Shown here: positions 4,801-56,564 of the stretch, in pieces
Layout of the letters: every line of letters starts with the position of its first letter
Numbering within the stretch: the stretch's first letter is position 1
Assembly: GCA_033345195.1 (NCBI GenBank)
Contig: JAWPOE010000004.1
Coordinates: 108,005-172,004, forward strand
Source: Alphaproteobacteria bacterium
GTDB taxonomy: Bacteria > Pseudomonadota > Alphaproteobacteria > Rs-D84
Length of the DNA: 64,000 bases
Direction of reading: 5' to 3'
Program-made: the position numbers and the translations under genes
Notes under the pieces: model-generated
What the model was told of the DNA's origin: nothing
Database searches by the model: none
The model's input: only the letters and a program-made list of their open reading frames with translations

Positions 4801-5044
4801 TAATAGGCTTCCCAATGGATACATTTGTCTGTATATTGCTAGATGCAATTGCGCTAAGACGTCCGCCTGTTGTTTTTGCTTGGTTCGTGGAAACGCTGGT
4901 GCCGCTTTTGTTCGTGGGTTTTTTGCTGGTTGCCACTGCACCGCGTACAACACTGGTTCGCAATGTTGGTGTCGTTGCACATATTTCATTTGTTATAAAT
5001 GCAAAGGCAAAAATAATACTGAATAAACGCTTAAAATGAAACAT
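1898..5044 (-). CDS. large secreted repetitive protein (signal peptide, N-terminal coiled coil, tandem fibre-like repeats)
   Basis: 1048 aa ORF; N-terminus MFHFKRLFSIIFAFAFITNEICA is signal-peptide-like; coiled-coil heptads ELENLYNEIDEMRDAVEE...; repeated modules TIIAGLDGKYAPKDKDGEWEYVTTKTLPNVLPGDLVRTDTIT and LGDTYATKAEVNTVDGKF; more than 100 bp near-identical DNA repeats (3150-3265 vs 3930-4045). Confidence 0.8.
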   Translation of the reverse strand: MFHFKRLFSIIFAFAFITNEICATTPTLRTSVVRGAVATSKKPTNKSGTSVSTNQAKTTGGRLSAIASSNIQTNVSIGKPITNRSEKELENLYNEIDEMRDAVEESLSSYKEEIELLKAEIAQKDDRITELETSLESYESVKKAVVDLPKTISDEIESRGFMTAENFAADIENVKAATIAEVKQMNFATNNAVDTAIRAATTNIKSEIINERDQVLRDYAKTADVTNDIDVAKNATLVAAKQYVTDSNFATVSDLNNIALDEVAVANIVGNKLAENKVVTESSLMKINDIATIKQTLDKIPTVYATAAALKATTDGLNTTIAGLDNKYATSESVHTIIAGLDGKYAPKDKDGEWEYVTTKTLPNVLPGDLVRTDTITELDTRFVLRDGLANDVAGLKTETGEDIFVTPTGLDRRIASLGDTYATKAEVNTVDGKFANISNTIAGELLDDDEFKGTILAGLDENIKTLPGTVSELTGRLDEMDTTIAGLAAKDDEINSEFKGWKDTVVVKNNFPEFFRDRLGDSDILKDIVVTKTDLNGRGYATNDSVNNRFNNLGDTYATKAEVNTVNGKFTDYVTNADLNGRGYATNDSVNTIIAGLDGKYAPKDKDGEWEYVTTKTLPNVLPGDLVRTDTITKLDNRFVLSDGLASTIAGLKTDTGEDIFVTNDKIKDYATNDSVNNRFNSLGDTYATNDSVNSRFNSLGDTYATKATVNTVDGKFADYVTDTDLNGRGYVTNDGLVAYLSNKDNLTPLVTGLGDIFVRTDGLADAGGSIFVTPNALDNRIATLGQTYATKVEVNTVDNKVSGLSGSVETLNTGLSTLSGNYRDLGTTVGNQATDISNLSSGLETLQANAITKSNLKDNLLTQTGQKTTLLGDALIDTRYVNFTPLESALTTNIYDTVRYKNRNVLDYALTTPINDSTYTNRNVLSVALTTRPGGTFGNYTTLDHVLGNNGSSVISSLNSKVSNNTSAISTNAGNISSHESRIAENESNIDNHETRIEYNEAFTNNIANSLTCMAVDLNGLVGTNTCPVGGVSDLLKPTGLSQGVE

Positions 5045-10592: not shown

Positions 10593-13500
10593 TTACCATG
10601 TTGTATAACCTGGTGCACATGTATGTTCACACTTCTTTCGTGACGCATTCCACTTTCTGGAACCCGTTTCATCCGAATATGTATCACAGATTAAACGACA
10701 TTCGTTATCTTCCAGATTGTACAATTCTCCCTGGTACATACAGGACGCGATCTCGCAACCACGAACATAACTACTTGCGGCCAATTCGCCATTCGCGCTA
10801 TACATGTTGTTGCAGCGACCGCACTGTTTCCAACCTTCGTTCGTCAGACTGCTGTCATTTGTATATCCTGGATTACATTCGGTTGCAATACATTCGCCCC
10901 ATGTGTTTGTATTATGGTTCCATTCGCGCACGCCAATACCATTTTCCAGTTCACAGACTTGTTCGTCAACCTGGCATGCATTTGAACCAAGATGATATCC
11001 GTCTTCGCAGTCTGTAATTATACATTCGCTAAACGCATTCTTATTAGAATCCCACTTTTGTGTTGCGGCAATTGCATTTGGCGCAGAACATTCAATCACA
11101 TTGGATTCACACGCTTGGCCATTCGGATGATACCCAGAAACACACGATTCAACGACACAGTTTCCACCTTGCTTATAAGATATTGCATTTTCACGCGCAC
11201 ATGGTGTGCATATGCCATCGATTAATTCAAAGTTGTAATTGCATGATGTTTCAATACATACATTGTCGATTATGTCACATGGATTGCCGGTTGGTGAACG
11301 TCCTTCAAATTCGCATTCGAATGGATAGAATACGGTATCCTCGACTGGTACGGCTGTACCATTTGTGACGGCATATTCCACACATTCTTTATAACACGCA
11401 TCGACAGACGACGAACCTGGAACAGACAGCGTATACAACCCACCTGTTAATTCTGAACATGTCTTTGGCATATTGTCAGGCGTATCTGTTGAGCATACAC
11501 TACCTGCTGGACATATCACGCACTGCGCGTTACTCAGATAATACCCTGTATCACACGCAAATGTTTGACATGTATCTGGAATATTTGCGCCATAATAGTC
11601 GCGTCCGACCATTTGTGTTGCATTTTCTGCCAGCCCACAGTCTGCATAGCAGTAATTAACATCTGTCGTTCCCGCATCTGCATACGTGTACGCACCATTT
11701 GTCAGTTCAGAACAACTCATAGGTTTATTGCCTGGTACATTGGTTGAGCATACGCTGCCCTCTGGACATATTATGCATTGACCATCGCTCAGATAATACC
11801 CCGCATCGCACGCTGTTATCTGACATGTGTCTTCGATACTGTCGCCGTAATAGTTGCGGCCTGACACCTGTGTTGCGTTTTCACCCAAATCGCAGTCTGC
11901 ATAGCAGTACGCAACATCTGTCGTTCCAGCCTCTGCATACGTGTACGCACCACTTGTCAGCTCTGAACATGTTTTAGGATCTTCTTGTTGGTTCTCTGTA
12001 TCGCATACACTGCCTGCTGGGCAAATTGTACACTGACCATCATTTACATAGAATCCGCTAGTACATTTTGCTATCTGACATGTATCTGGAATATTTGCGC
12101 CATAATAGTTGCGTCCGACCATTTGTGTTGCATTTTCTGCCAGCCCACAGTCTGCATAGCAGTAATTAACATCTGTCGTTCCCGCATCTGCATACGTGTA
12201 CGCACCATTTGTCAGTTCAGAACATGTCTTTTGTTCCCCGCCAAAGCACACATTATCTGCTGGGCAACCGATACAAGTATTTCCAACTTGTGAATACTTT
12301 TCATCACATTCTGTCACAATACAGTTTGTACAATTCAACGCGTATGCCTCAACTGCTTCATCATAATTACACGTGTTTTCTCCTTTCCCATTGACAATAT
12401 TGCACGACAGATTTTGTTTATAACACTCCGCTGCGCGTTTTGCCTTTGTTGTATCTGTTTTCCCATCGTCTGGACATTGGTACAGCAATGTCGAAGAACC
12501 TGGTTTTGCAGACAATGGTTGCTCCAATTCATTGGCAAAGAATGTTTGCTCCGGACTATAATTATTCGCGCCAACAGGTACACAGTCACGAACACCATCT
12601 TCGTCAACATACTTTCCGTCATCATAATAGCCTGCATTACATGCCACAATTACAGGCATTGCGCATTGATAGCTATAGCCTTTATTTATGTCCGTCTCAC
12701 TTGCGTCGTCAATATGATAGCAACTCAATCTCTGTGCGCCGTTTGTTGTTTCGAACCATCTATCCCCCAGATAACACTGTGTCACCTTTTCTGACGTTGT
12801 GTTTTGTGTTGTCACACCATCAACATCACCCAGATTTGGACATGCCACACGTCCCAAACTTGGTGCAGGACTATAATATCCGTATCCAACTTCTGTACAA
12901 TCTATGTCTTTATTGCTTTCCAACCAATGTCCTGCGATACAAGACATAACCTGTATGTTATCACAATTCACAGAATATGAGTTTGTCGCGTCATCATAAT
13001 AACATGTTTGTTTGCCGCTTGCACGATTTGTATCGGATACATACTGTACATTTGTTGCATAACAGTCCGCCTTTTCATCAGAACCTTTCGCAGATGATAT
13101 AGATACTTCTGTCGGTCTACCATTTTGATTTATTACTTCAACATATGTACCATTTAATGCCGCGCAGTATTCGATACCTTTATCAATTTTGTCGCCGTTT
13201 TGGTGGGTCGTAACACCCCCACAGTATGCTCCATTTGGACATACAACACACGCGTCTTCAAAACCATCATAATACATACCTTTATCGCATTTGATGATTG
13301 GATTTTCACCCCATACCGCAGTTAATGTAGCATTCTCACTAAATATAGTATAGTTCGAGCTAAGACTGCCGTCTGGATTAATGACAACTTCGTCATTCAA
13401 AGCCTTGTATCCACCGAATGAATAGTTTTGTTTTTTAGGTACTGTGATTGATTCAATCCTATCTGTTGCGTCTGCTTGACCGTTCGTACCATTGGTCAGT

Positions 13501-16500
13501 TTTAAATACCAGCCATCGTTATATTTCAAATATATTGTGTCGACTGCCTGTGTCACATCTTCTGCGCCCTTATCAAGTGTGATTGTTAATACTTTCGGGT
13601 AACATACATCGCCCAACGCCGTATACCCTGTGTTGCATTTTGTCTCATATTCACACGCAGGTATCGTGGAATCGTCATAATACACATACTGTTGTTTTGG
13701 TACACGTACGCCATTTTCAATACTGATATTACTGCATGTATTATAGCATTGTATTGGTGACGATGCGTTGTCCACACTGGTTGTTGTGGTCTCGTTCGCG
13801 CCACTTAAATTTGCGCACAACATTTTTTCAATACTGCCCTCAATACTATATGCGCCAATTCCGACCAACGCACATGTTTGTGAATTTTCCGCTTCGCGCC
13901 ATCTGCCGGCGACACAACTTGTAATTTTGATGTTACAACTTGCGTTATATGCATCAGACCCGTAATAACAGGTTTGATCCCCTGCGCCGGTTTTATCGCT
14001 CAATTGGGTGTCTGAACGTACAGCATAACAGTCAGTTATATCATCACTGCCACTTGTCGAGCTGACTTCGCCATTTAATGTATCTGTTGGACATACGCGC
14101 ATACAGCCCAGCGTCGTATCTGTTTCTGTCCCCGCATCAACCCAGCCACCCGGACAATAGTAGCCAGCTTCACATGTGTTGTTATTCACATCAAAACCCG
14201 CACTACATTCTGTCTGCAAGCGTTCCCATTCGGCTGTTAATACGCCATCGTTATTTGTGAACAGTGCAACCTCATCTGTGTTTGGTTTTCCATTCTCGTC
14301 AATGACTTTTATATCTCCTTTGAAATAACCCTTGAAAGCATAATTTGTTCTTTGTGGCGTTTCTATTGCCGATAAAACATTGCTGCCCCCTTCGTCAGAA
14401 TACCAACCGACCGTATATTTTTGATAAATTGTCTCTGTTCCACCAGAACCACCATTGGTATTCAGTGTTACTTTCCACACCCCTGGATCACATGATGCAA
14501 TAGTCGTCGCAGTATTTGGTGCACCATATAACGTACGCGAATAACCATATTCAATATCGCCAGTTGTACGTGCTATATAGCCTGTATCACATGTATATGT
14601 AAATGAACAGAATGTTGTAGGTGTACATATTGTATTTGGATACCAACGGAATCCATTACGTGCTGTTAAATTTTCTGTACAGGTTGCATGTTCTGGACAA
14701 TGGTTAACATATTCGCCAGTTAATTTGTCATCTGCCCCCAGTACATAGTCGTGATATAAGTTACATGTAGGCGTACATCCCGCGCCATAGCATGCGCTTG
14801 CCCCCGCGCTCATGTTTGCATTAATGGACGAAGACCAGCATGTTTCTGTGCCACCACTCGCATTCGGACACAGCCCCTCTAACGAAGAGCACTTTTCAGA
14901 ACAGTCATTTACATCGCTGGTTAAATACATGCCAGAAGAGCACTTTGTATACGTATTATATAGAACTGGGCAAGTATTATCATCCCCTCCCTCGGTGTTG
15001 CCGGTCGGGTACAGTGTAATAGTCGTCTTTGCTGTTGTGTCGTACGCGCAACTTAAGAAGTTCTTATTAGGACATATTTTGCAATATCTTTCCCCCTCGC
15101 ACGGGTCGTAACATGCTGTTTCTTCTGTTTTATAACATTCATCTGCTGATGTTGCGCCTGCGTCAGATTCAGTATAACTGCCGTCGCCAACAGTTTGGCA
15201 ACTGTAAATGCCTTGGTCGTTATTGGAATCAATTTCATAGACGTCTTCGTCGGTTCCTGGGCAGTAATTCCCTGGGGTACATGTTTCACATTTCAAAGTC
15301 CCACGTGGCAGGTATTCACCCACGTCGCAAGCATCTATCGTCTCTGTATTTTTTATCCAGCCTGCTGTTAATGTCGTATCTTCAGCAATGTCCCAGTCTT
15401 GTGCAGAAGAATTGTCTGCATTAATATACAGTGTTTCATTATACCACCACCCCGTAAATACATATCCTGTGCGTACCGGTGTTATGCCCGGATTACTCAT
15501 TGGCTGACCATATGTCACAGTCATTGGGTCTGGTGTTCCGACCCCGTCGCCCGGGTCAAACGTCACAGTATATCTGTTTGCATTACAACTGGGGGTTGCG
15601 GTGTTTGCATTGCTGACGGTATAACCCGTATTGCATGACGCGGTATACGTTGCCGTGCCATTGCTGTTAATGGTCAGAGCGCATATACCATTCTCAGGTT
15701 TGACGCAATCCATGGCCCAGCCCGCGTACAAGGTGGTGTCTCGGGTGGCTGATGTTGGTTTTGGCAATTCTGCCGATGGTCCAATGACAGGTATACTTTC
15801 ACCACCACTGGCGGTCAGGTCAGCCTGTTGTTTAGAATAATATCCACGGAACTTATAGTCTGTGCGTGCAGGAACCGGTGCTACCTTCAATGACTGGGTT
15901 CCATCACTAATATCGTACCAACCTGTATCATATCTTTCATAAATTTTCGTCTCGTCATCTGTGCCATCATTGTGCATTAATGTAATTATATAGATGCTTG
16001 GCGCGCATGCTTTTGCAATTGTAACGCCAAAGCCCTGATAGTTGTCATAACAATCATAACGTGCATACAACTTCGCCGTGTTGTCCAAGGCACTCATACA
16101 TGCAGATGACGACGAAAGAGCGCCGTTAGAATCAATACACTGTATGCCAACACTGGTGTGCGCGGTGTATGCCCCAACATAACGTGCATTTGTCTTTGAT
16201 GGTTTTGTAACGCTTGTAATTTGGGTGGAACAATCGCTGTCACTATAATAATAGGATGAATCCGTCTTTTTATAAATCTCTGTCGTGCCACCTGTGCCAC
16301 CATTGGTGGTATTGTCTATGGTAATTTTGGTACATGCCGACGTCCAGCATGCATGCAGCGCTGCATTTTCTGTATACGACGTATTGGTGAAATCGGTGGT
16401 TATATAACCATTGGCATCGATACGCTGGATCCCAGAGCAAGCTGTACTGGTATAATATCCACCAAATTTATAACCTGTTTTGGCTGGGGTTGTAATTGGA

Positions 16501-17873
16501 TTTGCAGTCGTTGACATCTTTTTTGTCAAAGATGTATCCAGATAAACACCATCGGAATACACAAAATATACTGTACCAGGTGCGGTCCCATTGTCATTAA
16601 CCAGCCCAATCATACGTATCGGGCGACGCCCCGCATAATATGTAACAGTTGCCGCCGTTGACGTAATAGATGGCTTATGTGTAAGCGTCACGGAACTATT
16701 ATCTGGCAGGGTTTCACTTGTATACCAGCCATCAAAAATCTTGTATCCTGACGCCGGTGTTAATGTCGCCGGACTGGGCATTGGACATTCCTTGTTATAT
16801 TTACAACACTGGGTTATAGTGTTGGCACTGGAACTGGGGGTCCATGTCTTTGGATTTCCACATCCATCTGGCCACGTCAATGTTGCACCTGTTGCACCAT
16901 TTGCATTTAATGTCACGGTACGATAACAATCTGTCTGCGCCCCTGCACCTGCCGCCGACGTCCAATTCGTTGGACACTGGTTTTGTGTCACACTGGTCGA
17001 CCCAGCCGGACAGTAATAACCCGCAGTACATGCCGACCATACGACATACAGTTCAACAGTACCGCCATTGGCTGTGGTCAGATTTGTAACAGATTCTTTA
17101 TCGGTGTACTCCACCTCCTCGTTTGTTGCCGTTGGCGATGTTGCCCAACCCTGGAAAACATAGCCCGTGCGTTTAAATGTATTTGCGCTTAGTTCCTGTG
17201 CCACCCCATATGTAAATGACTGACGTTTTGTGGCGGCACTTGTCGAATTGTCATTTGAATGGAACAAAACTGTGTATGTATTTGCGGTACATTTATTATT
17301 ATATACATGATATCCGGTGCCGCATATAATCCATCTTGCATAAATGGTTTTGTCACTTGTTACTGTCCATGTCTCACCTGTATTGGCGCCATCGCTATCA
17401 AACAACTGTGTCCCACCGATAAGATTGGTGGTATATATTCCTTTAAATTCGGCGCTTGATGATGTTGCAGATATATTCCCCGATAATTCGGTTGTACATG
17501 TTTCGTCTGTGTACCATGTATTGTCCCCAGTTTTCTTGTACAGTACATTTCGTAAAACCGTAGAGTTCGCAGTGCTGGATGAAATTGTTATCTTGTTACA
17601 GTTTTGAACAGGATGCGCAATCCCAGCATTACATGTCCAACCGTCTAAACATTTTATACATGAGTTTCCAGTATGTGGTCGTACACCACCATACTTCAAA
17701 CTTTCAATCAGTTCTTCTTGTGTTGTGCCCCAGTCAGCAAGATAATACCCCGCACTACACGACGTGTATGTTTTTAATGTCGGACACGTATATCCCGCAG
17801 CAAGCACATTTGTGCCCAAAAATACGGTTGCAAAAATTGTTAAAATTCCCAGAAATCTGCGGATTTTCCCCAT
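10593..17873 (-). CDS. giant cysteine-rich surface protein with Listeria-Bacteroides (InlB B-repeat-like) repeats
   Basis: about 2426 aa from the ATG preceded by AGAGAGGAAG RBS (the track ORF extends to 18017); signal peptide MGKIRRFLGILTIFATVFLGTNVLAA; many TGYxFxGW(Y) motifs; Cys-rich modules CxxGYYxxDGQCxxCPxGSxC; 3 x 86-aa perfect tandem repeats. Confidence 0.85.
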   Translation of the reverse strand: MGKIRRFLGILTIFATVFLGTNVLAAGYTCPTLKTYTSCSAGYYLADWGTTQEELIESLKYGGVRPHTGNSCIKCLDGWTCNAGIAHPVQNCNKITISSSTANSTVLRNVLYKKTGDNTWYTDETCTTELSGNISATSSSAEFKGIYTTNLIGGTQLFDSDGANTGETWTVTSDKTIYARWIICGTGYHVYNNKCTANTYTVLFHSNDNSTSAATKRQSFTYGVAQELSANTFKRTGYVFQGWATSPTATNEEVEYTDKESVTNLTTANGGTVELYVVWSACTAGYYCPAGSTSVTQNQCPTNWTSAAGAGAQTDCYRTVTLNANGATGATLTWPDGCGNPKTWTPSSSANTITQCCKYNKECPMPSPATLTPASGYKIFDGWYTSETLPDNSSVTLTHKPSITSTAATVTYYAGRRPIRMIGLVNDNGTAPGTVYFVYSDGVYLDTSLTKKMSTTANPITTPAKTGYKFGGYYTSTACSGIQRIDANGYITTDFTNTSYTENAALHACWTSACTKITIDNTTNGGTGGTTEIYKKTDSSYYYSDSDCSTQITSVTKPSKTNARYVGAYTAHTSVGIQCIDSNGALSSSSACMSALDNTAKLYARYDCYDNYQGFGVTIAKACAPSIYIITLMHNDGTDDETKIYERYDTGWYDISDGTQSLKVAPVPARTDYKFRGYYSKQQADLTASGGESIPVIGPSAELPKPTSATRDTTLYAGWAMDCVKPENGICALTINSNGTATYTASCNTGYTVSNANTATPSCNANRYTVTFDPGDGVGTPDPMTVTYGQPMSNPGITPVRTGYVFTGWWYNETLYINADNSSAQDWDIAEDTTLTAGWIKNTETIDACDVGEYLPRGTLKCETCTPGNYCPGTDEDVYEIDSNNDQGIYSCQTVGDGSYTESDAGATSADECYKTEETACYDPCEGERYCKICPNKNFLSCAYDTTAKTTITLYPTGNTEGGDDNTCPVLYNTYTKCSSGMYLTSDVNDCSEKCSSLEGLCPNASGGTETCWSSSINANMSAGASACYGAGCTPTCNLYHDYVLGADDKLTGEYVNHCPEHATCTENLTARNGFRWYPNTICTPTTFCSFTYTCDTGYIARTTGDIEYGYSRTLYGAPNTATTIASCDPGVWKVTLNTNGGSGGTETIYQKYTVGWYSDEGGSNVLSAIETPQRTNYAFKGYFKGDIKVIDENGKPNTDEVALFTNNDGVLTAEWERLQTECSAGFDVNNNTCEAGYYCPGGWVDAGTETDTTLGCMRVCPTDTLNGEVSSTSGSDDITDCYAVRSDTQLSDKTGAGDQTCYYGSDAYNASCNIKITSCVAGRWREAENSQTCALVGIGAYSIEGSIEKMLCANLSGANETTTTSVDNASSPIQCYNTCSNISIENGVRVPKQQYVYYDDSTIPACEYETKCNTGYTALGDVCYPKVLTITLDKGAEDVTQAVDTIYLKYNDGWYLKLTNGTNGQADATDRIESITVPKKQNYSFGGYKALNDEVVINPDGSLSSNYTIFSENATLTAVWGENPIIKCDKGMYYDGFEDACVVCPNGAYCGGVTTHQNGDKIDKGIEYCAALNGTYVEVINQNGRPTEVSISSAKGSDEKADCYATNVQYVSDTNRASGKQTCYYDDATNSYSVNCDNIQVMSCIAGHWLESNKDIDCTEVGYGYYSPAPSLGRVACPNLGDVDGVTTQNTTSEKVTQCYLGDRWFETTNGAQRLSCYHIDDASETDINKGYSYQCAMPVIVACNAGYYDDGKYVDEDGVRDCVPVGANNYSPEQTFFANELEQPLSAKPGSSTLLYQCPDDGKTDTTKAKRAAECYKQNLSCNIVNGKGENTCNYDEAVEAYALNCTNCIVTECDEKYSQVGNTCIGCPADNVCFGGEQKTCSELTNGAYTYADAGTTDVNYCYADCGLAENATQMVGRNYYGANIPDTCQIAKCTSGFYVNDGQCTICPAGSVCDTENQQEDPKTCSELTSGAYTYAEAGTTDVAYCYADCDLGENATQVSGRNYYGDSIEDTCQITACDAGYYLSDGQCIICPEGSVCSTNVPGNKPMSCSELTNGAYTYADAGTTDVNYCYADCGLAENATQMVGRDYYGANIPDTCQTFACDTGYYLSNAQCVICPAGSVCSTDTPDNMPKTCSELTGGLYTLSVPGSSSVDACYKECVEYAVTNGTAVPVEDTVFYPFECEFEGRSPTGNPCDIIDNVCIETSCNYNFELIDGICTPCARENAISYKQGGNCVVESCVSGYHPNGQACESNVIECSAPNAIAATQKWDSNKNAFSECIITDCEDGYHLGSNACQVDEQVCELENGIGVREWNHNTNTWGECIATECNPGYTNDSSLTNEGWKQCGRCNNMYSANGELAASSYVRGCEIASCMYQGELYNLEDNECRLICDTYSDETGSRKWNASRKKCEHTCAPGYTTW
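11459..12232. repeat. intragenic tandem repeat, 3 copies of about 258 bp, near-perfect
   Basis: identical stretches longer than 140 bp at about 11575-11720 and 12075-12225; the track shows identical antisense peptides in 11565..11747 and 11985..12293. Confidence 0.8.
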
Positions 17874-18033
17874 GTTCTTCCTCTCTTTTATACTGTATGG
17901 TAGAAAATTTGTAGCCATATGCGCAAGGGAAAACGTGTATATACAATGAAAATATTTTTTATTTGATAAAAAATTAAGAAATAGAAATTTTTGGCTTGCA
18001 TGATTTTTATAATACATATATAATGACCGCCGT

Positions 18034-24758: not shown

Positions 24759-24766
24759 TTAAAAAC

Positions 24767-24795
24767 TTGCAATTTCCAGTCCAAAAGACTATAAT
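24767..24795 (+). promoter_or_regulatory. sigma70-type promoter of ssrA (TTGCAA-17 nt-TATAAT)
   Basis: perfect -35/-10 hexamers with 17-nt spacer, about 7 nt upstream of the predicted 5-prime end of the tmRNA acceptor piece. Confidence 0.6.
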
Positions 24796-24801
24796 TATAT
24801 G

Positions 24802-25150
24802 GCTGCATTGCAGTGATGATTCTGAAACCGTTGTGAAATAGTCATTATGGACTGGGGGGCGGTACCCCACAGCTCCACCATTTCTTGATACGATTATTGG
24901 TCGTATTTGGGAATGGGGCTGACATAGATTCGACAGATGATGAAAGACAAATTGGCTGAATCCGACATGGCGTCGTAAAAAGCCGACTAAAAACTGAATG
25001 GCGATAGAATCGCTGCGAACGACAATGTTCGCCTTGCAATGGCTGCCTAAGAATGGCGTTGAATATGGTTGGCGATTGTTGACTGTATTCGTTTAAGCGA
25101 TTGCGGTGTTCGCCGGGTACATGGCACCAGAAACCCGGCATTTAATTTTG
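24802..25150 (+). ncRNA. ssrA: two-piece (circularly permuted) tmRNA gene: acceptor piece about 24802-24880 ending in CCA, intervening segment, coding piece about 24915-25150
   Basis: acceptor piece ends ...ggggggcggtaccccaCAGCTCCACCA (tRNA-Ala-like 3-prime strand plus CCA); coding piece starts GGGGCTGACATAGATTCGACAG (cf. E. coli GGGGCUGAUUCUGGAUUCGACGGG); tag ORF 25015-25050 GCG AAC GAC AAT GTT CGC CTT GCA ATG GCT GCC TAA encodes ANDNVRLAMAA; terminal hairpin gccgggt..acccggc plus T-run; this permuted gene order is established for alphaproteobacteria. Confidence 0.8.
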
Positions 25151-28988: not shown

Positions 28989-29816
28989 ATGAAGCAGTAT
29001 AAACTAGAAGATTGTATATATGCGATTAAAGACATGTATTCTGATGTCGTAAAAATCAAGATGCCCAAAATTGCCGGAACTCAAAATAATGTATTTTTTG
29101 CGCATACTGCTAATAACAAGGATGTCGTTTTTAAATTTTCGTCGCCTCAAATGGTTATTAAAAATGCAATGATCAGTTCTTTGTATCGCAGTTATGGTAT
29201 TCCTGTGCCAATTATTTCTGCGAATAAACATAATGGGATGTTTTTTGAAAAATATGAAATGTTGTCTGGGTGTACTTTGTTTGAAGCAATAAAAGACGGC
29301 ATGACATCGGCGCAGATTAAACAAGTTTATCGTGAAATTCTGGTCGAATTTGCCAAGATGGCACAAATTCGCCCGGACATGTTGGCGCAAAACATGATAA
29401 AAGATATTAATGGCGTCGTGTACAGGCACGTCTCAAATGTACACAATCCTGCAATGGCAGTATTGTTTGCGACGGTTGCATATTTGTTAAATATTGGGCG
29501 TGACGAAAACAAAGCTGTCTTCCATTCTGATATAACACCAAAGAATACAATTGTATCGCCAGATGGATATTTGGTTGGTTTTGTTGATATCGATTCTACA
29601 TCTGTTTGTAATAAAAGTTATGCATTTGGTGCGCTGGCGGCAAAGTATCAAGAATTGGGATTTGATATGACAGAATTGTTTGATTTTTATGAAAATAATA
29701 CCGCAGATACGCGCAGGTTAAATCGTGACAGGATTAAAGCAATGGCCAACATTACTAATTTTGGCAAGCGTTTGATGTGGCAGTTTTCTCAGCGCAAGGC
29801 AAATCATTCAAAATGA
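28989..29816 (+). CDS. aminoglycoside-phosphotransferase (APH)/choline-kinase-fold protein, paralog 1
   Basis: catalytic loop FHSDITPKNTIV and metal-binding VGFVDID of the protein-kinase-like APH family. Confidence 0.7.
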   Translation: MKQYKLEDCIYAIKDMYSDVVKIKMPKIAGTQNNVFFAHTANNKDVVFKFSSPQMVIKNAMISSLYRSYGIPVPIISANKHNGMFFEKYEMLSGCTLFEAIKDGMTSAQIKQVYREILVEFAKMAQIRPDMLAQNMIKDINGVVYRHVSNVHNPAMAVLFATVAYLLNIGRDENKAVFHSDITPKNTIVSPDGYLVGFVDIDSTSVCNKSYAFGALAAKYQELGFDMTELFDFYENNTADTRRLNRDRIKAMANITNFGKRLMWQFSQRKANHSK

Positions 29817-30601
29817 TTTCGCGCAGTACCGAATTTTATCATTCTGCAATAAAAAACGCATATCCTGATGCCACGTGTATTCGGTGCCCAGATGTACCAG
29901 GTATGATTGCGCCGATTTTTTTTGCAGATGTTCTGAAAAAGACGATAGTATGTCGTTTTAGCCTGCCTGAAATCGTTTTTAAAAACAAGATTGCCAGTGA
30001 TTTATTATGTGATTATGGTGTTCCTGTGCCTCAGACAAAGGTGCATGCGTATGTTGGAACTTGGTTTGAATCGTATGAATATTGTAAGGACAAGACGCTA
30101 TATGAACATATAAAATTAGGTTTGCCTGACGATAAAATATTTAAAGCATACGTTGGTGCATTTGAAATTCAAAATAAAATTTCAAAAATTTCTGCAAATG
30201 AATTTTGCCCTGAAAAATTTCGTGAACATGTTGATATGTTGTGCGCAACAACAAAAATACGTGGCAGACTAAGCAAGATATATAATGATATTTTGTTTAA
30301 TGCATCTGTACGTTCACCACTACGTTTATTGCACAACGATATTCATTCTAAAAATATTTTATATTCGCCAGAAACAGATCGTATTCATTTGATTGACTTA
30401 GATGCAGTATCGCTGTGTAACGAAAATTTCACAATGATGACGACTGTGCAACGCTATCCGTTAAAGAATGCGCGACAATTAATGTCTGTCTATCAAGATA
30501 TAACGGGACGTAAACTGGATGTGAATAAAATATTGTTTGCGTGTAACGCAATGCAACTATTGCATAATTTGCGCCATCCGTTTGGTATACGTCAAAAATG
30601 A
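29813..30601 (+). CDS. APH/kinase-fold protein, paralog 2 (translationally coupled by ATGA overlap)
   Basis: LHNDIHSKNILY...HLIDLD; start ATG overlaps the stop of paralog 1 (ATGA). Confidence 0.7.
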   Translation: MISRSTEFYHSAIKNAYPDATCIRCPDVPGMIAPIFFADVLKKTIVCRFSLPEIVFKNKIASDLLCDYGVPVPQTKVHAYVGTWFESYEYCKDKTLYEHIKLGLPDDKIFKAYVGAFEIQNKISKISANEFCPEKFREHVDMLCATTKIRGRLSKIYNDILFNASVRSPLRLLHNDIHSKNILYSPETDRIHLIDLDAVSLCNENFTMMTTVQRYPLKNARQLMSVYQDITGRKLDVNKILFACNAMQLLHNLRHPFGIRQK

Positions 30602-39296: not shown

Positions 39297-41042
39297 ATGT
39301 TATTTGGTAAAAAATCTGGGATAAAAAACCGCAATCGTGAACGTTATGAACGCGTTCGTCGCCTGCTGTGGATTAAGTGCGAGGCATGCGGTCGCCTTGT
39401 TTATTACAAAGATTACAAAGAAAATAAATATATTTGCCCGAACTGTGGTCGTGCGTTTATTATGACGCCGAAACAGCGTTTTGATTTACTGTTTGATGAC
39501 AATACATGGGAACGCCTGACACCACCAACAATATCGGATGATCCGCTGGAATTCACGGATCGTGTGTCGTATGCCGACAGATTGGCTGACGCACGCTCTG
39601 AAACAGGTTCTTATGACGCCATCACAACCGCAGACGGCACAATTGGGGGTGTTCCGTCAACTGTTTGTGTGTTAAATGGCCTGTTTATGATGGGGTCAAT
39701 GGGGCGTGCCGCCGGTGATGCGATTGTTGCTGCAATGGAACATGCGATTGCAGAACGTCGTCCATTTATTATGGTGACGTCCAGTGGTGGTGCCCGTATG
39801 CAAGAAAACATTTTGTCGTTAATGCAGATGGCGCGTACAACGGTTGCTGTGAACAAATTGCACGAAAACGGAATACCATATATCGTGTTGTTAACTGACC
39901 CAACATTTGGTGGGGTGACGGCGTCTTTTGCAATGTTGGGTGATATTCATATTGCTGAAAAGGGCGCACGAATTGGGTTTGCAGGTCGTCGTGTTATCGA
40001 ACAAAATATTCGTGAAAAATTACCGTCAAAATTCCAGACGGCGGACTATTTATATGAACATGGTATGGTTGATATGGTTATCGCGCGCGGTGATTTGCAT
40101 GATGCCATTGCGCGAATTTTGCATGTCTTAACCAAACAAGAATGTGAACCAAAGACAATCAAGACAATAACGCCACCACATGATGCGTCAAAGAAAATAC
40201 GTGGCATGGGTGAAAACGAGGCCTATGACAAAGTTTTGTTGGCGCGAAATGAAAACCGTCCGCATTTCTTGGATTATATTGACGGCATTGTTGATGAATG
40301 GACATATTTGGCCGGCGACAGATTATTTGCCGAAGATGCCGCCATGGGTTCTGGTATTGGTTATTGGCGTGGCATCCCGGCTGTGATTATTGGTCAGGAA
40401 CAGGGACGCACAATTGAAACGCGTCAAAAACATCGCTTTGGTATGGCGAATCCAGACGGCTATCGCAAGGCACAACGTATGATGCGTCTGGCAGAAAAGT
40501 TTAATTTACCACTGATATCGTTATTTGATACCGCCGGCGCATTCGCAGGCCGCGAAGGCGAAGAACGTGGTCAGTCCCAGGCGGTTGCCTCATCTATCTC
40601 GGTTGGTTTGTCTATCAAGACGCCATATGTCGCCGTTAACGTGGGGCAGGGTGGCTCTGGCGGTGCTATCGCGATTGGTACGGGCGACCGTGTCTTGATG
40701 ATGGAAAACGCAATTTATTCGGTGATTGCACCAGAATCTTGTGCCAGTATTTTATGGAAAGATAATAAGTTTAAGGCAACCGCCGCCCAGGCAATGAAGT
40801 TGACTGCACGCGACATGGCGAATCTGAATGTTATCGACGAAATTATACCGGAACCGGCCGGTGGGGCGCATACAGATTGGCAAACGACAATGGAATTGTT
40901 GGCAAATGCTGTGGCAAAACAGATTACAGAATTGCAGCAAATTCCGGCAAATGAATTGCCGGCCCGTCGTGCTGAAAAGTATATCGCAATGACGCGTGAT
41001 GTCGAAATATGTCAACCCGACCACGTCAGTGACGAACATTAA
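39297..41042 (+). CDS. accDA: fused acetyl-CoA carboxylase carboxyltransferase beta-alpha (AccD-AccA) polypeptide
   Basis: N-terminal AccD zinc ribbon CEACGRLVYY...CPNCGRAF plus MGSMG...SSGGARMQE; C-terminal AccA motifs NPDGYRKAQRMMRLAEKFNLPLISLFDTAGAFAGREGEERGQSQA and GQGGSGGAIAIGTGDRVLMMENAIYSVIAPESCASILWK; single uninterrupted 581-aa frame. Confidence 0.85.
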   Translation: MLFGKKSGIKNRNRERYERVRRLLWIKCEACGRLVYYKDYKENKYICPNCGRAFIMTPKQRFDLLFDDNTWERLTPPTISDDPLEFTDRVSYADRLADARSETGSYDAITTADGTIGGVPSTVCVLNGLFMMGSMGRAAGDAIVAAMEHAIAERRPFIMVTSSGGARMQENILSLMQMARTTVAVNKLHENGIPYIVLLTDPTFGGVTASFAMLGDIHIAEKGARIGFAGRRVIEQNIREKLPSKFQTADYLYEHGMVDMVIARGDLHDAIARILHVLTKQECEPKTIKTITPPHDASKKIRGMGENEAYDKVLLARNENRPHFLDYIDGIVDEWTYLAGDRLFAEDAAMGSGIGYWRGIPAVIIGQEQGRTIETRQKHRFGMANPDGYRKAQRMMRLAEKFNLPLISLFDTAGAFAGREGEERGQSQAVASSISVGLSIKTPYVAVNVGQGGSGGAIAIGTGDRVLMMENAIYSVIAPESCASILWKDNKFKATAAQAMKLTARDMANLNVIDEIIPEPAGGAHTDWQTTMELLANAVAKQITELQQIPANELPARRAEKYIAMTRDVEICQPDHVSDEH

Positions 41043-41044
41043 AA

Positions 41045-41075
41045 AAATCCCCACAAATGGGGATTTTATTTTTGT
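41045..41075. terminator. bidirectional terminator (AAATCCCC..GGGGATTT family)
   Basis: aaaaaaatccccacaaatggggattttatttttg between convergent genes. Confidence 0.55.
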
Positions 41076-41590
41076 GCTATGCGTTTTATTTTTGCGATAT
41101 ACCGTACCATATTGTGATTTGGATAGCGCGCAATAATTTCGTCTTGGTTTTGTGCAATTTCTTTGCATGCGTCTTGGGCAACTTGTTTGATGTTTGTGTG
41201 ACGCACAATTTCAATCTGGTTCGCGCCACATTGCCACAGTTCTGTTTTATCGGGTGCCTGATTCTTATAAATGGTCCCGATTGGCTTAATTTCCAGAAAT
41301 GTTATTGTTGGGGTGTCATAGTCGATAAAATCGTAAACTTCCCAATACCACAACAGCATATCAACCGCATTATCACAAAAATGAAACACAGGCTCTGTTG
41401 CGCGTACGCCAAATCCTCCGAAATAATTTTTTCGTGGAATTGCAGTAAATTGACGCCCAGGGGTATACTCTTCTGTGCTTTTTATGTTGAACGAAATGCT
41501 TAACCCATCGGGCAAGCTATCAGCTGGCCAAACCATTTTATACGATTTGGCAGCATATATTTCTTCAAAATCAGTATTTTTTTCATTCAT
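41066..41590 (-). CDS. hypothetical protein
   Basis: about 174 aa ORF (start at MNEKNTDFEE or 24 nt upstream); no domain recognised. Confidence 0.5.
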   Translation of the reverse strand: MNEKNTDFEEIYAAKSYKMVWPADSLPDGLSISFNIKSTEEYTPGRQFTAIPRKNYFGGFGVRATEPVFHFCDNAVDMLLWYWEVYDFIDYDTPTITFLEIKPIGTIYKNQAPDKTELWQCGANQIEIVRHTNIKQVAQDACKEIAQNQDEIIARYPNHNMVRYIAKIKRIAQK

Positions 41591-41647
41591 GATGTTCGCA
41601 ATATAATACAACAATACAATTTGTCAACAATAAAAAACAAAAATAAA

Positions 41648-41693
41648 ACCCGCCGATTTGGCGGGTGAATTTTCTGGCGGAGCGTATAGGACT
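41648..41693 (-). repeat. 46-bp perfect direct repeat: copy of the tRNA-Ser(GCT) 3-prime end (18 nt) plus its terminator-hairpin flank
   Basis: acccgccgatttggcgggtgaattttctggcggagcgtataggact occurs at 41648-41693 and at 41824-41869; the second copy is the genuine tRNA 3-prime end. Confidence 0.65.
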
Positions 41694-41850
41694 GTACTCC
41701 CCATCCCCTTACGGGGTGGGGATGCCCCTATCCACTCGTAACGATTTGTGCGCGTTTCACTTCCCAAATCTACTTCGTGTCGAACCTTTTACGGTTCTCG
41801 TCCAACGTCCGCAGGCATAAAATTACCCGCCGATTTGGCGGGTGAATTTT

Positions 41851-41938
41851 CTGGCGGAGCGTATAGGACTCGAACCTATGGACCAAAAATTTCGGTCACA
41901 GATTAGCAATCTGCTGCATTACCACTCTGCCAACGCTC
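41851..41938 (-). tRNA. tRNA-Ser (anticodon GCT), long variable arm
   Basis: revcomp GGAGCGT TG GCAG..GCAGA TTGCTAA TCTGT..GACCGAAATTTTTGGTCC..GGTTCGAGTCC..ACGCTCC G CCA; 88 nt. Confidence 0.9.
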
Positions 41939-42165
41939 CGTGCGACGGTTATTATATATAAACAGAAAATTAAATGCAAGCAAGAAAATCTAAAAAACGC
42001 CTTGACCCAGATTGGCGTGGCGTGGCATAATCAACACATGACAATTCGTTTTATTAATTTTTACTGTTGTCGTTAGTATTTATTTTCTGCAAACTAAATT
42101 TGTTTGCATTTCAATCACGCAATTATTAAAATTTCAAAAACATAAACTGACAAAGGACACATATC

Positions 42166-55610: not shown

Positions 55611-56564
55611 ATGAGTAATCTGGATAAATTGCAACAACTAAATACCAACATACCACGCGAAACATTGGTTGTCGCGACGGATGGATTGGTTATAAAGCGT
55701 CCTGTAATTAAATCAGGTGGGATACCGCGCAAATCATGGGTAGCAAAGCAATATCATGCCCAAAAGGTACAAGATTCATTGCAGGCTAAATCTGGTAAAT
55801 ATTATTTTGTTCCTAAAATGTTAGAGATTTCAGACGCCCAGATGTTTGCAATTGAACAACGTGTTTCTGGCGTCCCTGTCACAGATACATATTTTGAAAC
55901 CCTGGGCGAAGGTGACAGGGCAATAATATATTTGGGATTGGCGCATTTTTTAAATGATATTAATCAATCAAGGCCGGTATTAACACAACGTGACATATTC
56001 GATACCCCAGAACACCCAGGAGACATTGCTTTTGCACGAATTGTAAAACATTTACGCAAAGATTTAACCAGCAAGGAAATTGACATATTAAACAAATCCA
56101 AGGAATGGTTTGATACAAATTCTGCCAACGACGCCAGCATTGTGTTTTGTCAGGGTGACATGAATCAACATAACATATTCTATGACCAAGCGACCAAAAC
56201 AGTATCGTTTATTGATTTTGCAGATGCGCGATATGAAAATGCGCGGGATATGTTTCATCGCGATATTGCGCGTCTAACATGGCTTGATATCGATAAATTG
56301 GTTCAAATATATAAGGGGTTAGAACGCGCGCAACCTGTTATAACGGAATCAGACCCAACTGTTTCACGCATGCGAAACGCTTTGCAAAATATAAAATGGA
56401 CAGGCTCAGAAGTTATTAATGCCACACCAAAGTTATATAAAGCGCGCCTGGCCATTTTAAAAGATGAAATTGCAAAACTTGGTAAATTGCTTATGTCTAT
56501 AAAGACAAAGAATACTTTTGAGCACGCGTTAAACACACTGAACGATAATAAAAAGCAAAAATAG
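55611..56564 (+). CDS. APH/kinase-fold protein, paralog 3
   Basis: FCQGDMNQHNIFY...FIDFAD catalytic and metal-binding loops as in the paralogs at 28989-30601. Confidence 0.7.
   Translation: MSNLDKLQQLNTNIPRETLVVATDGLVIKRPVIKSGGIPRKSWVAKQYHAQKVQDSLQAKSGKYYFVPKMLEISDAQMFAIEQRVSGVPVTDTYFETLGEGDRAIIYLGLAHFLNDINQSRPVLTQRDIFDTPEHPGDIAFARIVKHLRKDLTSKEIDILNKSKEWFDTNSANDASIVFCQGDMNQHNIFYDQATKTVSFIDFADARYENARDMFHRDIARLTWLDIDKLVQIYKGLERAQPVITESDPTVSRMRNALQNIKWTGSEVINATPKLYKARLAILKDEIAKLGKLLMSIKTKNTFEHALNTLNDNKKQK

What the first reader, a model, noticed from the sequence alone, without database searches (positions are those of the whole stretch)
39297..41042. Single-polypeptide AccD-AccA (carboxyltransferase beta-alpha) fusion
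In most bacteria accD and accA are separate and usually unlinked genes. Here one uninterrupted 581-aa frame carries the AccD zinc ribbon and catalytic half followed directly by an AccA module that lacks its usual first 50 or so residues. The fusion junction is around residue 300 (...HVLTKQECEPKTIKTITPPHDASKKIRGMGENEAYDKVLLARNENRPHFLDY...). This is an uncommon gene-fusion state of the ACC carboxyltransferase.
Basis: partly seen in the sequence, partly recalled or inferred. Interest (0 to 1): 0.55.

Follow-up and report, generated by a model that had tools for sequence, protein, structure and literature searches.

The report
Fused AccD-AccA carboxyltransferase, known architecture
The gene really does encode both halves of the acetyl-CoA carboxylase carboxyltransferase in one chain, but this fused layout is already common in public databases and is fixed in the whole gut-bacterial lineage the window comes from, so it is an ordinary, if neatly traceable, gene fusion.

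Summary
Observation confirmed. Window 39297-41042 (+) is one uninterrupted 581-aa ORF. It has an AccD N-tail and four-Cys zinc ribbon, an AccD core (res 15-281), a 27-aa non-helical linker (282-308) and an AccA core (309-567). The roughly 55-residue N-terminal helical hairpin of AccA is absent. It is not an assembly artefact: the frame is intact in 80 of 80 species-level genomes of Candidatus Enterousia and relatives (order Rs-D84, Alphaproteobacteria; gut; genomes under 1 Mb), with dN/dS about 0.07.

The interpretation "uncommon fusion" is only partly right. The D-to-A fusion fills about 100 of the top 150 clusters at 50% identity. It occurs in cultured Firmicutes, gut Lachnospiraceae, Kiritimatiellia and Chloroflexi, and was used as a textbook "prefusion complex" case in 2013.

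New here: the Enterousia fusion arose independently inside Alphaproteobacteria. Both halves group with stand-alone subunits. The alphaproteobacterial ihfB-accD neighbourhood is kept. A relative carries ihfB-accD-accA as separate genes overlapping by 14 nt, where one frameshift would give a linker of about 28 aa. BC/BCCP partners were not found in the DNA held. Verdict: new member of a known kind; low-moderate interest.

The parts
38956..38984 (+). Sigma-70-like promoter match upstream of the ihfB-like gene; a possible start of a two-gene ihfB-accDA transcription unit
   Evidence: Consensus scan, 10 of 12 matches. This is a consensus match only, not evidence of function.
39013..39291 (+). Divergent IHF-beta-like (HU family) gene, 92 aa. 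Its stop lies 3 nt before the accDA start.
   Evidence: NCBIfam IHF-beta PRK00199, 70 bits (below the 115 cutoff), aligned 1-91 of 95. It lies directly upstream of accDA in 80 of 80 related loci. The same adjacency is seen in the unfused relative L085.
39297..41042 (+). Whole fused accD-accA ORF (581 aa plus stop)
39297..39365 (+). AccD N-terminal tail (res 1-23). Predicted disordered but highly conserved; it corresponds to the E. coli AccD segment that docks on the BC dimer and BCCP.
   Evidence: pLDDT below 50 for res 1-22. Conservation 0.94 over res 1-14. dN/dS 0.083. Role in E. coli from PMC11160672.
39369..39446 (+). Four-Cys zinc ribbon (C28, C31, C47, C50)
   Evidence: Pfam PF17848 at res 25-50. 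The four Cys are invariant across diverse fusions. dN/dS 0.023 for res 24-60.
39339..40139 (+). AccD (CT-beta) module, res 15-281, including the GG pair G205-G206 (39909-39914)
   Evidence: TIGR00515 at 328 bits, above its cutoff. Aligns to E. coli AccD 18-278. G205 and G206 are invariant or nearly so.
40140..40220 (+). 27-aa inter-domain linker, res 282-308 (QECEPKTIKTITPPHDASKKIRGMGEN). It is non-helical and replaces the AccA N-terminal helical hairpin.
   Evidence: Coil, with block-mean pLDDT of 59-65 over res 291-310 and below 50 at res 302-306. Mean conservation 0.76 against 0.87-0.90 for the cores, with fixed TP, D, KK.RGMGE positions and only a 1-aa indel. dN/dS 0.115. The length is typical of D-A fusions: median 23, IQR 22-27.
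40221..40997 (+). AccA (CT-alpha) module, res 309-567, including the GGSGG motif (G452-G456; 40650-40664)
   Evidence: NF041504 at 329 bits, above its cutoff. Aligns to E. coli AccA 57-310. Foldseek TM 0.94-0.95 and rmsd 1.4 A to the short Chloroflexus AccA 9m70.
41044..41067 (.). Bidirectional terminator-like hairpin immediately after the accDA stop
   Evidence: 10-bp stem followed by a T-run on both strands. Consensus match only.

Best explanation
This is the carboxyltransferase (CT) component of a heteromeric-type acetyl-CoA carboxylase, encoded as a single beta-alpha polypeptide.

Shown:
- Both modules meet curated AccD and AccA family thresholds.
- The zinc-ribbon cysteines and the two glycine-rich oxyanion-hole motifs are intact.
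- Both halves are under strong purifying selection.
- The chain is predicted to fold with the N-domain/C-domain arrangement of natural single-chain carboxyltransferases.

Inferred:
- Two chains form a (beta-alpha)2 homodimer equivalent to the E. coli alpha2beta2 tetramer. It would transfer CO2 from carboxybiotinyl-BCCP to acetyl-CoA to give malonyl-CoA.
- Fusion fixes the 1:1 subunit ratio and mimics the alpha-beta subcomplex through which E. coli CT disassembles.
- The conserved AccD N-tail and zinc domain are retained. In E. coli these dock BC and BCCP.
- The AccA N-terminal helical hairpin is absent. In E. coli it stacks rings into tubes and touches the BC C-terminus. The holoenzyme therefore probably still recruits BC/BCCP but does not build E. 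coli-type stacked filaments.

Origin (shown by trees and synteny; the mechanism is inferred): the fusion arose inside Alphaproteobacteria, independently of the Firmicutes and Kiritimatiellia fusions. The starting point was an ihfB-accD-accA arrangement with a short AccA and overlapping reading frames. A frameshift or stop loss in the overlap then merged the two genes.
For: Family membership and residues. Intact frame in 80 of 80 species and in 120 of 120 best protein clusters. Purifying selection: dN/dS 0.069 overall, 0.072 for the D core, 0.063 for the A core, 0.115 for the linker. AF2 model: pLDDT 84.9, pTM 0.87. The whole chain aligns over 535-578 columns with PCC-beta, 12S and AccD5 chains at TM 0.60-0.73, and the halves align to AccA (TM 0.94-0.95) and AccD (TM 0.83-0.89). 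[quoted passage not shown] Independent origin:
- The D half is 52-55% identical to stand-alone AccDs, against 47.7% or less for other fusions.
- In NJ bootstraps the sister group is stand-alone D in 98-99 of 100 replicates, and stand-alone A in 79-89 of 100.
- The nearest named relatives are alphaproteobacterial.
- The canonical ihfB-lapA-trpFBA-accD-folC synteny is present in L081.
- ihfB lies directly upstream of accDA in 80 of 80 loci.
- The pre-fusion arrangement HU/IHF-accD(287 aa)-accA(288 aa), with a 14-nt overlap in the +1 frame, is seen in L085 and L086. It predicts a linker of about 28 aa, against 27 observed.
Against: No BC (accC) or BCCP (accB) gene was found in the window or within 8 kb of the gene in 80 species. 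The lineage is reported to lack lipid biosynthesis (PMC12306168). The existence of a full ACC and of a FASII sink for malonyl-CoA is therefore assumed, not shown.

The dimer and the non-filament inference rest on homology to E. coli and on a monomer model only.

The trees are neighbour-joining, on a sample biased towards high-scoring sequences. P0262 (L085 accD) is itself a long branch, at most 48% identical to anything else, so its sister position could partly reflect long-branch attraction. The A-half tree places the L085 accA in the sister group in only 32 of 100 replicates. dS is near saturation, so dN/dS values are approximate.
Confidence: 0.8

Rival explanations
1. Sequencing or assembly artefact: two adjacent genes (accD, accA) merged by a spurious indel in this assembly.
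For: A relative does have overlapping accD and accA genes, where a single-base error would create exactly such a fusion.
Against: The uninterrupted frame recurs in 80 of 80 independently assembled species-level genomes and in 120 of 120 best protein clusters from NCBI, ENA, JGI and Logan. The linker is conserved at the protein level with dN/dS 0.115. There is no homopolymer or stop at 40140-40260.
Confidence: 0.01
2. The fused gene was acquired ready-made by horizontal transfer from co-resident gut bacteria (Lachnospiraceae, Kiritimatiellia), where D-A fusions are abundant.
For: The host lives in animal guts alongside those taxa. The A half is about 50-52% identical to Kiritimatiellia-type fusions, similar to its identity to stand-alone AccAs. 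7-18 of 100 bootstraps put some D-A fusions in the sister group of the A half.
Against: The D half groups with stand-alone alphaproteobacterial AccDs in 98-99 of 100 replicates, and the A half with stand-alone AccAs in 79-89 of 100. The gene sits in a remnant of the alphaproteobacterial ihfB...accD neighbourhood. An unfused ihfB-accD-accA relative exists. Overall identity to any foreign fusion is 46% or less.
Confidence: 0.07
3. The protein is not part of a fatty-acid-synthesis ACC. In this reduced, reportedly lipid-auxotrophic lineage it may be an orphan or repurposed carboxyltransferase. Examples: the CT of a biotin-dependent malonyl-CoA decarboxylase, a malonyl-CoA supplier for something other than FASII, or a protein with a moonlighting RNA- or protein-binding role via its zinc ribbon.
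For: Rs-D84 and Enterousia genomes are under 1 Mb and are reported to lack lipid, amino-acid and nucleotide biosynthesis and respiration (PMC12306168). No BC or BCCP was found in 1.21 Mb of held Enterousia DNA around the gene. There is weak similarity to malonate decarboxylase beta (E about 1e-15). E. coli CT has been proposed to bind its own mRNAs through the zinc finger (PMC2831308, abstract).
Against: The scores meet the AccD equivalog and AccA subfamily cutoffs, whereas the malonate-decarboxylase and MmdA models score far below theirs (58 against 278 bits; 63 against 999 bits). The BC/BCCP-docking N-tail is among the most conserved segments. No decarboxylase pump subunit or biotin carrier is adjacent. 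The DNA searched is one syntenic neighbourhood, not whole genomes, so absence of accBC there says little. The published 'lipids missing' statement is generic for three lineages and may itself reflect mis-scoring of a fused accDA.
Confidence: 0.12

Closest known systems
E. coli / S. aureus heteromeric ACC carboxyltransferase, AccA2-AccD2 (PDB 2F9Y, 2F9I, 8UXZ)
   Same: Both catalytic modules are present, at 41-46% identity. The AccD N-tail, four-Cys zinc ribbon and glycine-rich oxyanion motifs are kept. The fold of each half superimposes at TM 0.80-0.89.
   Different: One chain instead of two. The AccA N-terminal helices alpha1 and alpha2 (E. coli res 9-57) are absent and replaced by a 27-aa coil. 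The E. coli genes are unlinked, whereas here there is a single ORF directly behind ihfB.
Naturally fused AccD-AccA proteins of Firmicutes (Natranaerobius thermophilus, Proteinivorax tanatarense, Sellimonas catena, Lachnospiraceae MAGs), Kiritimatiellia and Chloroflexi (UniRef 'Multifunctional fusion protein')
   Same: Same D-to-A order. Same loss of the AccA N-terminal hairpin. Linker length falls in the modal 20-29 aa class. Overall length is 550-650 aa.
   Different: Only 39-46% identical. Per-half trees and synteny indicate that the Enterousia fusion is an independent event within Alphaproteobacteria.
Adjacent, translationally overlapping accD-accA pairs with a short AccA (L085/L086: ihfB-accD-accA; L087: fabH-accD-accA; Chloroflexus CT-beta/CT-alpha, PDB 9M70)
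   Same: The short AccA (273-288 aa) starts at the same point as the A module here. L085 shares the upstream HU/IHF gene, and its accD is the sister of the Enterousia D half in 88 of 100 replicates.
   Different: These are two ORFs, overlapping by 14 nt or 4 nt in different frames, rather than one. Identity is 44-48%.
Single-chain carboxyltransferases of other biotin enzymes (PCC beta, transcarboxylase 12S, AccD5/AccD6, eukaryotic ACC CT domain)
   Same: Same N-domain (beta-like) then C-domain (alpha-like) order in one chain. Whole-chain Foldseek alignments cover 535-578 columns at TM 0.60-0.73. Lombard & Moreira note that the two CT units are one peptide in all other biotin carboxylases (PMC3199775).
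   Different: Only 17-21% identical. Those proteins have no zinc ribbon. The MmdA model scores 63 bits against a cutoff of 999. This protein is a secondary re-fusion of the split bacterial ACC type, not a member of that family.
Multidomain bacterial ACCs (Shewanella AccS / 'AccADCB', PDB 9KKM; BC-AccD-AccA proteins P0150 and P0238)
   Same: The CT halves are covalently linked.
   Different: Those proteins also carry BC and/or BCCP, and AccS has the A-D-C-B order. The window protein has CT only, in D-A order.

Membership tests
AccD, ACC carboxyltransferase beta subunit (TIGR00515 equivalog) | Whole-protein score at or above the curated cutoff | tested here: met
   328.3 bits against a cutoff of 317.45; res 15-281 match profile positions 16-282 of 285
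AccD, ACC carboxyltransferase beta subunit | N-terminal four-Cys zinc ribbon unique to bacterial AccD | tested here: met
   PF17848 at 32.7 bits (cutoff 24.5), res 25-50. C28, C31, C47 and C50 are invariant or nearly so.
AccD, ACC carboxyltransferase beta subunit | Glycine pair forming the oxyanion hole (E. coli AccD G204-G205; the role is from my own knowledge of Bilder et al. 2006) | tested here: met
   G205-G206 align to E. coli 'tmGGvsasf' and are invariant or nearly so in fusions
AccA, ACC carboxyltransferase alpha subunit | Score at or above the curated cutoff of the AccA subfamily model NF041504 | tested here: met
   329.3 bits against a cutoff of 300; res 311-565 match positions 2-256 of 257
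AccA, ACC carboxyltransferase alpha subunit | Score at or above the cutoffs of the full-length AccA equivalog models (PRK05724, TIGR00513) | tested here: not met
   348.8 against 357 bits and 300.1 against 319.3 bits. The match starts at profile position 54-55, so the shortfall is due to the missing N-terminus.
AccA, ACC carboxyltransferase alpha subunit | N-terminal antiparallel helical hairpin (E. coli alpha1 9-21, alpha2 37-57) | tested here: not met
   The Pfam ACCA match starts at position 48 of 310. E. coli residue 57 aligns to res 309. Res 279-308 are modelled as coil. The helix definition is from PMC11160672.
Natural AccD-AccA fused carboxyltransferases | Single ORF in D-then-A order, with a short linker replacing the AccA N-terminus | tested here: met
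   The linker is 27 aa, against a median of 23 (IQR 22-27) in 209 D-A fusions. Architecture as.
Natural AccD-AccA fused carboxyltransferases | Common descent with the Firmicutes/Kiritimatiellia fusions | tested here: not met
   Both halves group with stand-alone subunits: D in 98-99 of 100 replicates, A in 79-89 of 100. The architecture is shared but the origin is independent.
Single-chain acyl-CoA carboxyltransferases (PCC beta / MmdA / 12S type) | Sequence membership (TIGR01117 mmdA or relatives at cutoff) | tested here: not met
   63.5 bits against a cutoff of 998.8. 17-21% identity in Foldseek alignments, despite TM 0.60-0.73.
Biotin-independent malonate decarboxylase beta (MdcD) | Score at the curated cutoff | tested here: not met
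   57.6 bits against 278 (TIGR03133) and 56.8 against 228 (PRK07189)
Complete heteromeric acetyl-CoA carboxylase | Presence of BC (AccC) and BCCP (AccB) partners in the same genome | tested here: inconclusive
   No BC or BCCP motif, and no tblastn hit, in the 64-kb window or in 80 loci covering about 8 kb either side (1.21 Mb in all).
Complete heteromeric acetyl-CoA carboxylase | Carboxyl transfer from carboxybiotin to acetyl-CoA | not testable with these tools
   Requires an enzyme assay

The most novel reading that the evidence does not exclude
In a lineage with genomes under 1 Mb that is reported to lack lipid biosynthesis, the strictly conserved fused carboxyltransferase may work in a non-canonical context. 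One possibility is a minimal ACC that cannot form E. coli-type filaments, because the AccA stacking helices are gone. Another is an orphan CT without BC/BCCP or FASII, serving some other malonyl-CoA or biotin-linked function. Separately, the Enterousia/L085 pair would be a clean natural before-and-after example of subunit re-fusion through a frameshift in a translational-coupling overlap.
Probability: 0.15. Interest if true: 0.5.

Novelty: new member of a known kind. Interest (0 to 1): 0.25.

Why it matters
For annotation: these proteins are currently named only 'subunit beta' or only 'subunit alpha'. Pathway tools may therefore score ACC as incomplete. That could contribute to statements that such reduced genomes lack lipid synthesis.

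For evolution: the Enterousia fusion, its conserved ihfB neighbour, and an unfused relative with overlapping accD and accA genes together illustrate how a split enzyme is re-fused. The result converges on the same domain order and roughly the same linker length as unrelated lineages. This is consistent with the structural constraints on fusion described by Marsh et al. 2013.

For enzymology: natural fusions lacking the AccA N-terminal helices are ready-made tests of whether those helices, and the filament stacking they mediate in E. coli, are needed for ACC activity.

None of this changes current understanding. The architecture itself is already well represented in databases.

Tried and rejected
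1. Literature searches for an explicit description of natural AccD-AccA fusions ('accDA', 'accD-accA', 'fused', 'single polypeptide'). Most 'accDA' hits refer to the Bacillus accD-accA operon or to ACC deaminase. Only Marsh et al. 2013 treats CT as a prefusion complex.

2. A BCCP motif scan ([EAS]AMK[MLV]) gave 50 hits. All were rejected: 48 lie inside AccA itself (AAMKLTA) and two are chance matches.

3. A search for BC/BCCP partners with domain probes cut from BC-D-A and D-A-BCCP fusions found nothing in the held DNA.

4. The supplementary tables of PMC12306168 and the 2023 Enterousia paper are not held, so the published gene content for accB, accC and fab genes could not be checked.

5. Attempts to name the organisms behind L081 and L085/L086 failed, using accession searches, Rfam and cluster-member names. 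Only indirect labels were obtained: the nearest named relatives are Alphaproteobacteria.

6. An internal translation start at the conserved M304 was considered, as a way to make free AccA. It was rejected for lack of any Shine-Dalgarno-like sequence upstream, though it has not been tested experimentally.

7. Residual homology of the linker to the AccA N-terminal helices was considered. The linker is modelled as coil, and curated profiles do not extend into it.
Full report
OBSERVATION. Window 39297-41042 (+) is a single ATG-initiated ORF of 581 aa. Pfam finds the ACC zinc ribbon (res 25-50), the carboxyl-transferase domain, and the ACCA family at res 304-565, matching profile positions 48-309 of 310. 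NCBIfam places AccD (TIGR00515) on res 15-281 at 328 bits (cutoff 317). It places the AccA subfamily model (NF041504) on res 311-565 at 329 bits (cutoff 300). The two full-length AccA equivalog models fall just short of their cutoffs because the match begins at profile position 54-55. Against solved structures, res 19-279 align with E. coli AccD, and res 309-562 align with E. coli AccA residues 57-310. The junction DNA (40140-40220) contains no stop codon, homopolymer or other sign of a merged frame. No second accA or accD exists in the window.

NOT AN ARTEFACT, AND UNIVERSAL IN THE CLADE. The 120 best database relatives are all 581-582 aa and carry all three domains, at 85-99% identity. They come from independent NCBI, ENA, JGI and Logan assemblies. 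A scan of one genome per GTDB species returned 80 loci, at 78-91% identity. These are Candidatus Enterousia and unnamed 'Alphaproteobacteria/Rickettsiales' MAGs from ruminant, horse, chicken, mouse and human guts. In all 80 the gene is a single full-length HSP, giving proteins of 573-585 aa. The window carries a two-piece alphaproteobacterial tmRNA. NCBI taxonomy lists Enterousia under Alphaproteobacteria. The lineage (GTDB order Rs-D84) has genomes under 1 Mb (PMC12306168). Across the 80 species, mean column conservation is 0.87-0.90 in the two cores, 0.94 in the first 14 residues and 0.76 in the linker. The linker keeps fixed positions (TP..D..KK.RGMGE) and shows only a 1-aa indel. Approximate Nei-Gojobori dN/dS is 0.069 overall: 0.072 for the D core, 0.063 for the A core, 0.115 for the linker and 0.083 for the N-tail. 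dS is near saturation and only 20 pairs could be used.

HOW COMMON IS THE ARCHITECTURE? An exhaustive HMMER search of 1.84 billion cluster representatives collapses the whole Enterousia group into one 50%-identity cluster (P0061). The next hits are fused proteins at about 44% identity. About 100 of the best 150 representatives cover both halves in one chain of 550-650 aa. Of 297 non-clade relatives fetched, 209 are D-A, 5 are A-D, and the rest are single subunits or fragments. Named examples include Natranaerobius thermophilus, Proteinivorax tanatarense and Sellimonas catena (UniRef: 'Multifunctional fusion protein'). Others are Mediterraneibacter and Ruminococcus MAGs (one cluster was seen on 651 contigs), Chloroflexi and Kiritimatiellia. 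Larger combinations also exist: BC-AccD-AccA (P0150, P0238), AccD-AccA-HMGL-like-PYC_OADA-BCCP (P0208), and the A-D-C-B enzyme of Shewanella. In the literature, Marsh et al. 2013 list E. coli CT (2F9Y) among 'prefusion complexes'. [quoted passage not shown] Lombard & Moreira 2011 point out that the two CT units form one peptide in every other biotin carboxylase (PMC3199775). The fused state is thus a known, widespread minority architecture. It is poorly annotated, usually named as only one subunit, but it is not a rarity.

ORIGIN OF THIS PARTICULAR FUSION.
- The AccD half is 52-55% identical to stand-alone AccDs, but at most 47.7% identical to the D halves of other fusions. The AccA half is about 50% identical both to stand-alone AccAs and to Kiritimatiellia-type fusions.
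- In neighbour-joining trees of each half (136-155 sequences, 100 bootstraps), the sister group of the Enterousia clade consists only of stand-alone AccDs in 98-99 replicates. It consists only of stand-alone AccAs in 79-89 replicates.
- Named members of those neighbourhoods are alphaproteobacterial: Pelagibacteraceae AccA, and 'Alphaproteobacteria', 'Rickettsiales', Parasphingorhabdus and Hyphococcus AccDs.
- Synteny agrees. One of the nearest stand-alone AccDs (P0188) lies in sppA-ihfB-lapA-trpF-trpB-x-trpA-accD-folC-DUF2093. From my own knowledge, this is the conserved alphaproteobacterial arrangement.
- In the window, a divergent IHF-beta-like gene ends 3 nt before the accDA start (IHF-beta model matched end to end at 70 bits, below cutoff). 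This adjacency holds in 80 of 80 loci. Loss of lapA-trpFBA would produce it, which fits the amino-acid auxotrophy reported for the lineage.
- Most tellingly, the immediate sister of the D half (P0262, 88 of 100 replicates) comes from an AT-rich genome (L085/L086, 34.5% GC). There the order is HU/IHF, then accD (287 aa), then accA (288 aa, short form). accA starts at an ATG inside the end of accD, in the +1 frame, giving a 14-nt overlap.
- A single frameshift in that overlap would join ...ILMQKKVND to TSINFDDFLNKPLTKEKLESYKD-A..., a linker of about 28 aa. The Enterousia linker is 27 aa.
- A second example of a tightly coupled pair with a short AccA is L087, where fabH-accD-accA has a 4-nt overlap. 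The Chloroflexus CT crystal structure also has a 273-aa AccA.

The likely sequence of events is as follows. First, accA with a shortened N-terminus came to lie directly behind accD. Then a frameshift or stop loss fused the two genes. This happened in the Enterousia lineage independently of other phyla. There are caveats. The trees are NJ only. P0262 is itself a long branch (at most 48% identical to anything else). The L085 accA joins the sister group of the A half in only 32 of 100 replicates.

MECHANISM. Shown:
- The catalytic modules, the zinc-ribbon cysteines (C28, C31, C47, C50) and the glycine motifs (G205-G206; G452-G456) are conserved across diverse fusions.
- AlphaFold2 gives a confident model (pLDDT 84.9, pTM 0.87). 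Res 279-308 form an unstructured linker, and res 1-22 are a low-confidence tail.
- Each half superimposes on solved AccA chains (TM 0.94-0.95, rmsd 1.4 A, for the short Chloroflexus AccA) and AccD chains (TM 0.83-0.89).
- The whole chain aligns over 535-578 columns with PCC-beta, transcarboxylase 12S and AccD5 chains, at TM 0.60-0.73. It thus has the N-domain/C-domain topology of natural single-chain carboxyltransferases.

Inferred:
- Two chains form a (beta-alpha)2 dimer equivalent to alpha2beta2. Fusion enforces 1:1 stoichiometry and mimics the alpha-beta intermediate through which E. coli CT disassembles.
- The E. coli holoenzyme structure assigns AccD residues 2-23 and the zinc domain to docking of BC and BCCP. 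It assigns the AccA N-terminal helices (9-21, 37-57) to ring-to-ring stacking and to contact with the BC C-terminus (PMC11160672).
- The fused protein keeps the first element under strong constraint and lacks the second. I therefore infer BC/BCCP recruitment without E. coli-type tube stacking.
- The 20-29 aa linker class dominates all D-A fusions: 153 of 209, median 23. Independent fusions therefore converge on the same solution.
- The gene is bracketed by a promoter-like site upstream of ihfB and a terminator-like hairpin right after its stop. This suggests an ihfB-accDA unit, but these are consensus matches only.

OPEN POINT. No BC or BCCP gene is present in the window or within 8 kb of accDA in any of the 80 species, by motif scan and by tblastn with BC/BCCP probes over 1.21 Mb. 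No lipid or biotin genes were seen among the window ORFs scanned. The mSphere paper states that these lineages lack lipid biosynthesis. I could not access whole genomes, supplementary tables or the 2023 Enterousia paper. So I cannot tell whether a full ACC and FASII exist. The strong conservation of the BC-docking tail argues that a partner exists. The alternative, an orphan or repurposed CT, is kept as a minority rival.

VERDICT. The feature is a genuine, functional-looking AccD-AccA fusion, but it belongs to an architecture already abundant in databases, and it is fixed throughout its clade. What is new is modest. It is an independent alphaproteobacterial origin with an identifiable pre-fusion relative. 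It also converges on the same linker length and the same loss of the AccA N-terminal hairpin as unrelated lineages. I file it as a new member of a known kind, with interest 0.25.

Noticed in passing
window 24763-25142 (+): Two-piece (permuted) alphaproteobacterial tmRNA: Rfam RF01849 at 137 bits; ARAGORN tag peptide AANDNVRLAMAA. It independently confirms the alphaproteobacterial origin of the window.
   Followed up: partly
window 10593-18017 (-), 33718-37545 (+), 1898-5044 (-): Three very large ORFs (2474, 1275 and 1048 aa) with almost no recognisable domains. The first has only Listeria-Bacteroides 'Flg_new' repeats. The second has no family hit at all, but carries degenerate tandem DAGRAANNA[ST]-like repeats. 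These are striking in a genome under 1 Mb and may be surface or host-interaction proteins.
   Followed up: partly
window 41648-41666 and 41825-41845: The same GC-rich hairpin (ACCCGCCGATTTGGCGGGT) occurs twice, about 180 nt apart. It lies in the intergenic region between orf182 and cysS, just next to tRNA-Ser(gct) at 41852-41939. Both copies score as bidirectional terminator-like sites.
   Followed up: no
window 41066-41614 (-): A 182-aa ORF directly downstream of accDA, convergent with it. It has no Pfam or NCBIfam match and is detectable in only about 10 of 80 related loci, so it is a variable gene in an otherwise conserved neighbourhood.
   Followed up: partly
window 28989-29816 (+), 29777-30601 (+), 55611-56564 (+): Three ORFs with weak choline/ethanolamine-kinase or APH-like phosphotransferase matches (below Pfam cutoffs). 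Two of them are adjacent and overlapping.
   Followed up: no
L085 7708-9717 (also L086): An unfused relative with HU/IHF, then accD, then accA. accD and accA overlap by 14 nt in different frames. The locus sits beside a Tcp/T2SS-like secretin-ATPase cluster in a 34.5% GC genome of unknown identity (GCA_016735395.1). Its AccD has no relative above 48% identity.
   Followed up: partly
protein P0208 (1300 aa; also P0256, 1216 aa): An ACC-type AccD-AccA module fused to an HMGL-like plus PYC_OADA (oxaloacetate decarboxylase/pyruvate carboxylase-type CT) module. In P0208 there is also a C-terminal biotinyl domain. This gives two different carboxyltransferase types on one chain, which suggests a transcarboxylase-like enzyme.
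   Followed up: no
proteins P0150 (1005 aa) and P0238 (972 aa): Biotin carboxylase fused N-terminally to AccD-AccA (order BC-D-A, no BCCP). This order differs from the A-D-C-B order of the Shewanella AccS type.
   Followed up: no
database annotation of P0006, P0036, P0122, P0299, P0328 and others: Fused proteins are named as only 'subunit beta' or only 'subunit alpha' by NCBI and JGI. Pathway-completeness tools may therefore miss one ACC subunit in these genomes.
   Followed up: no
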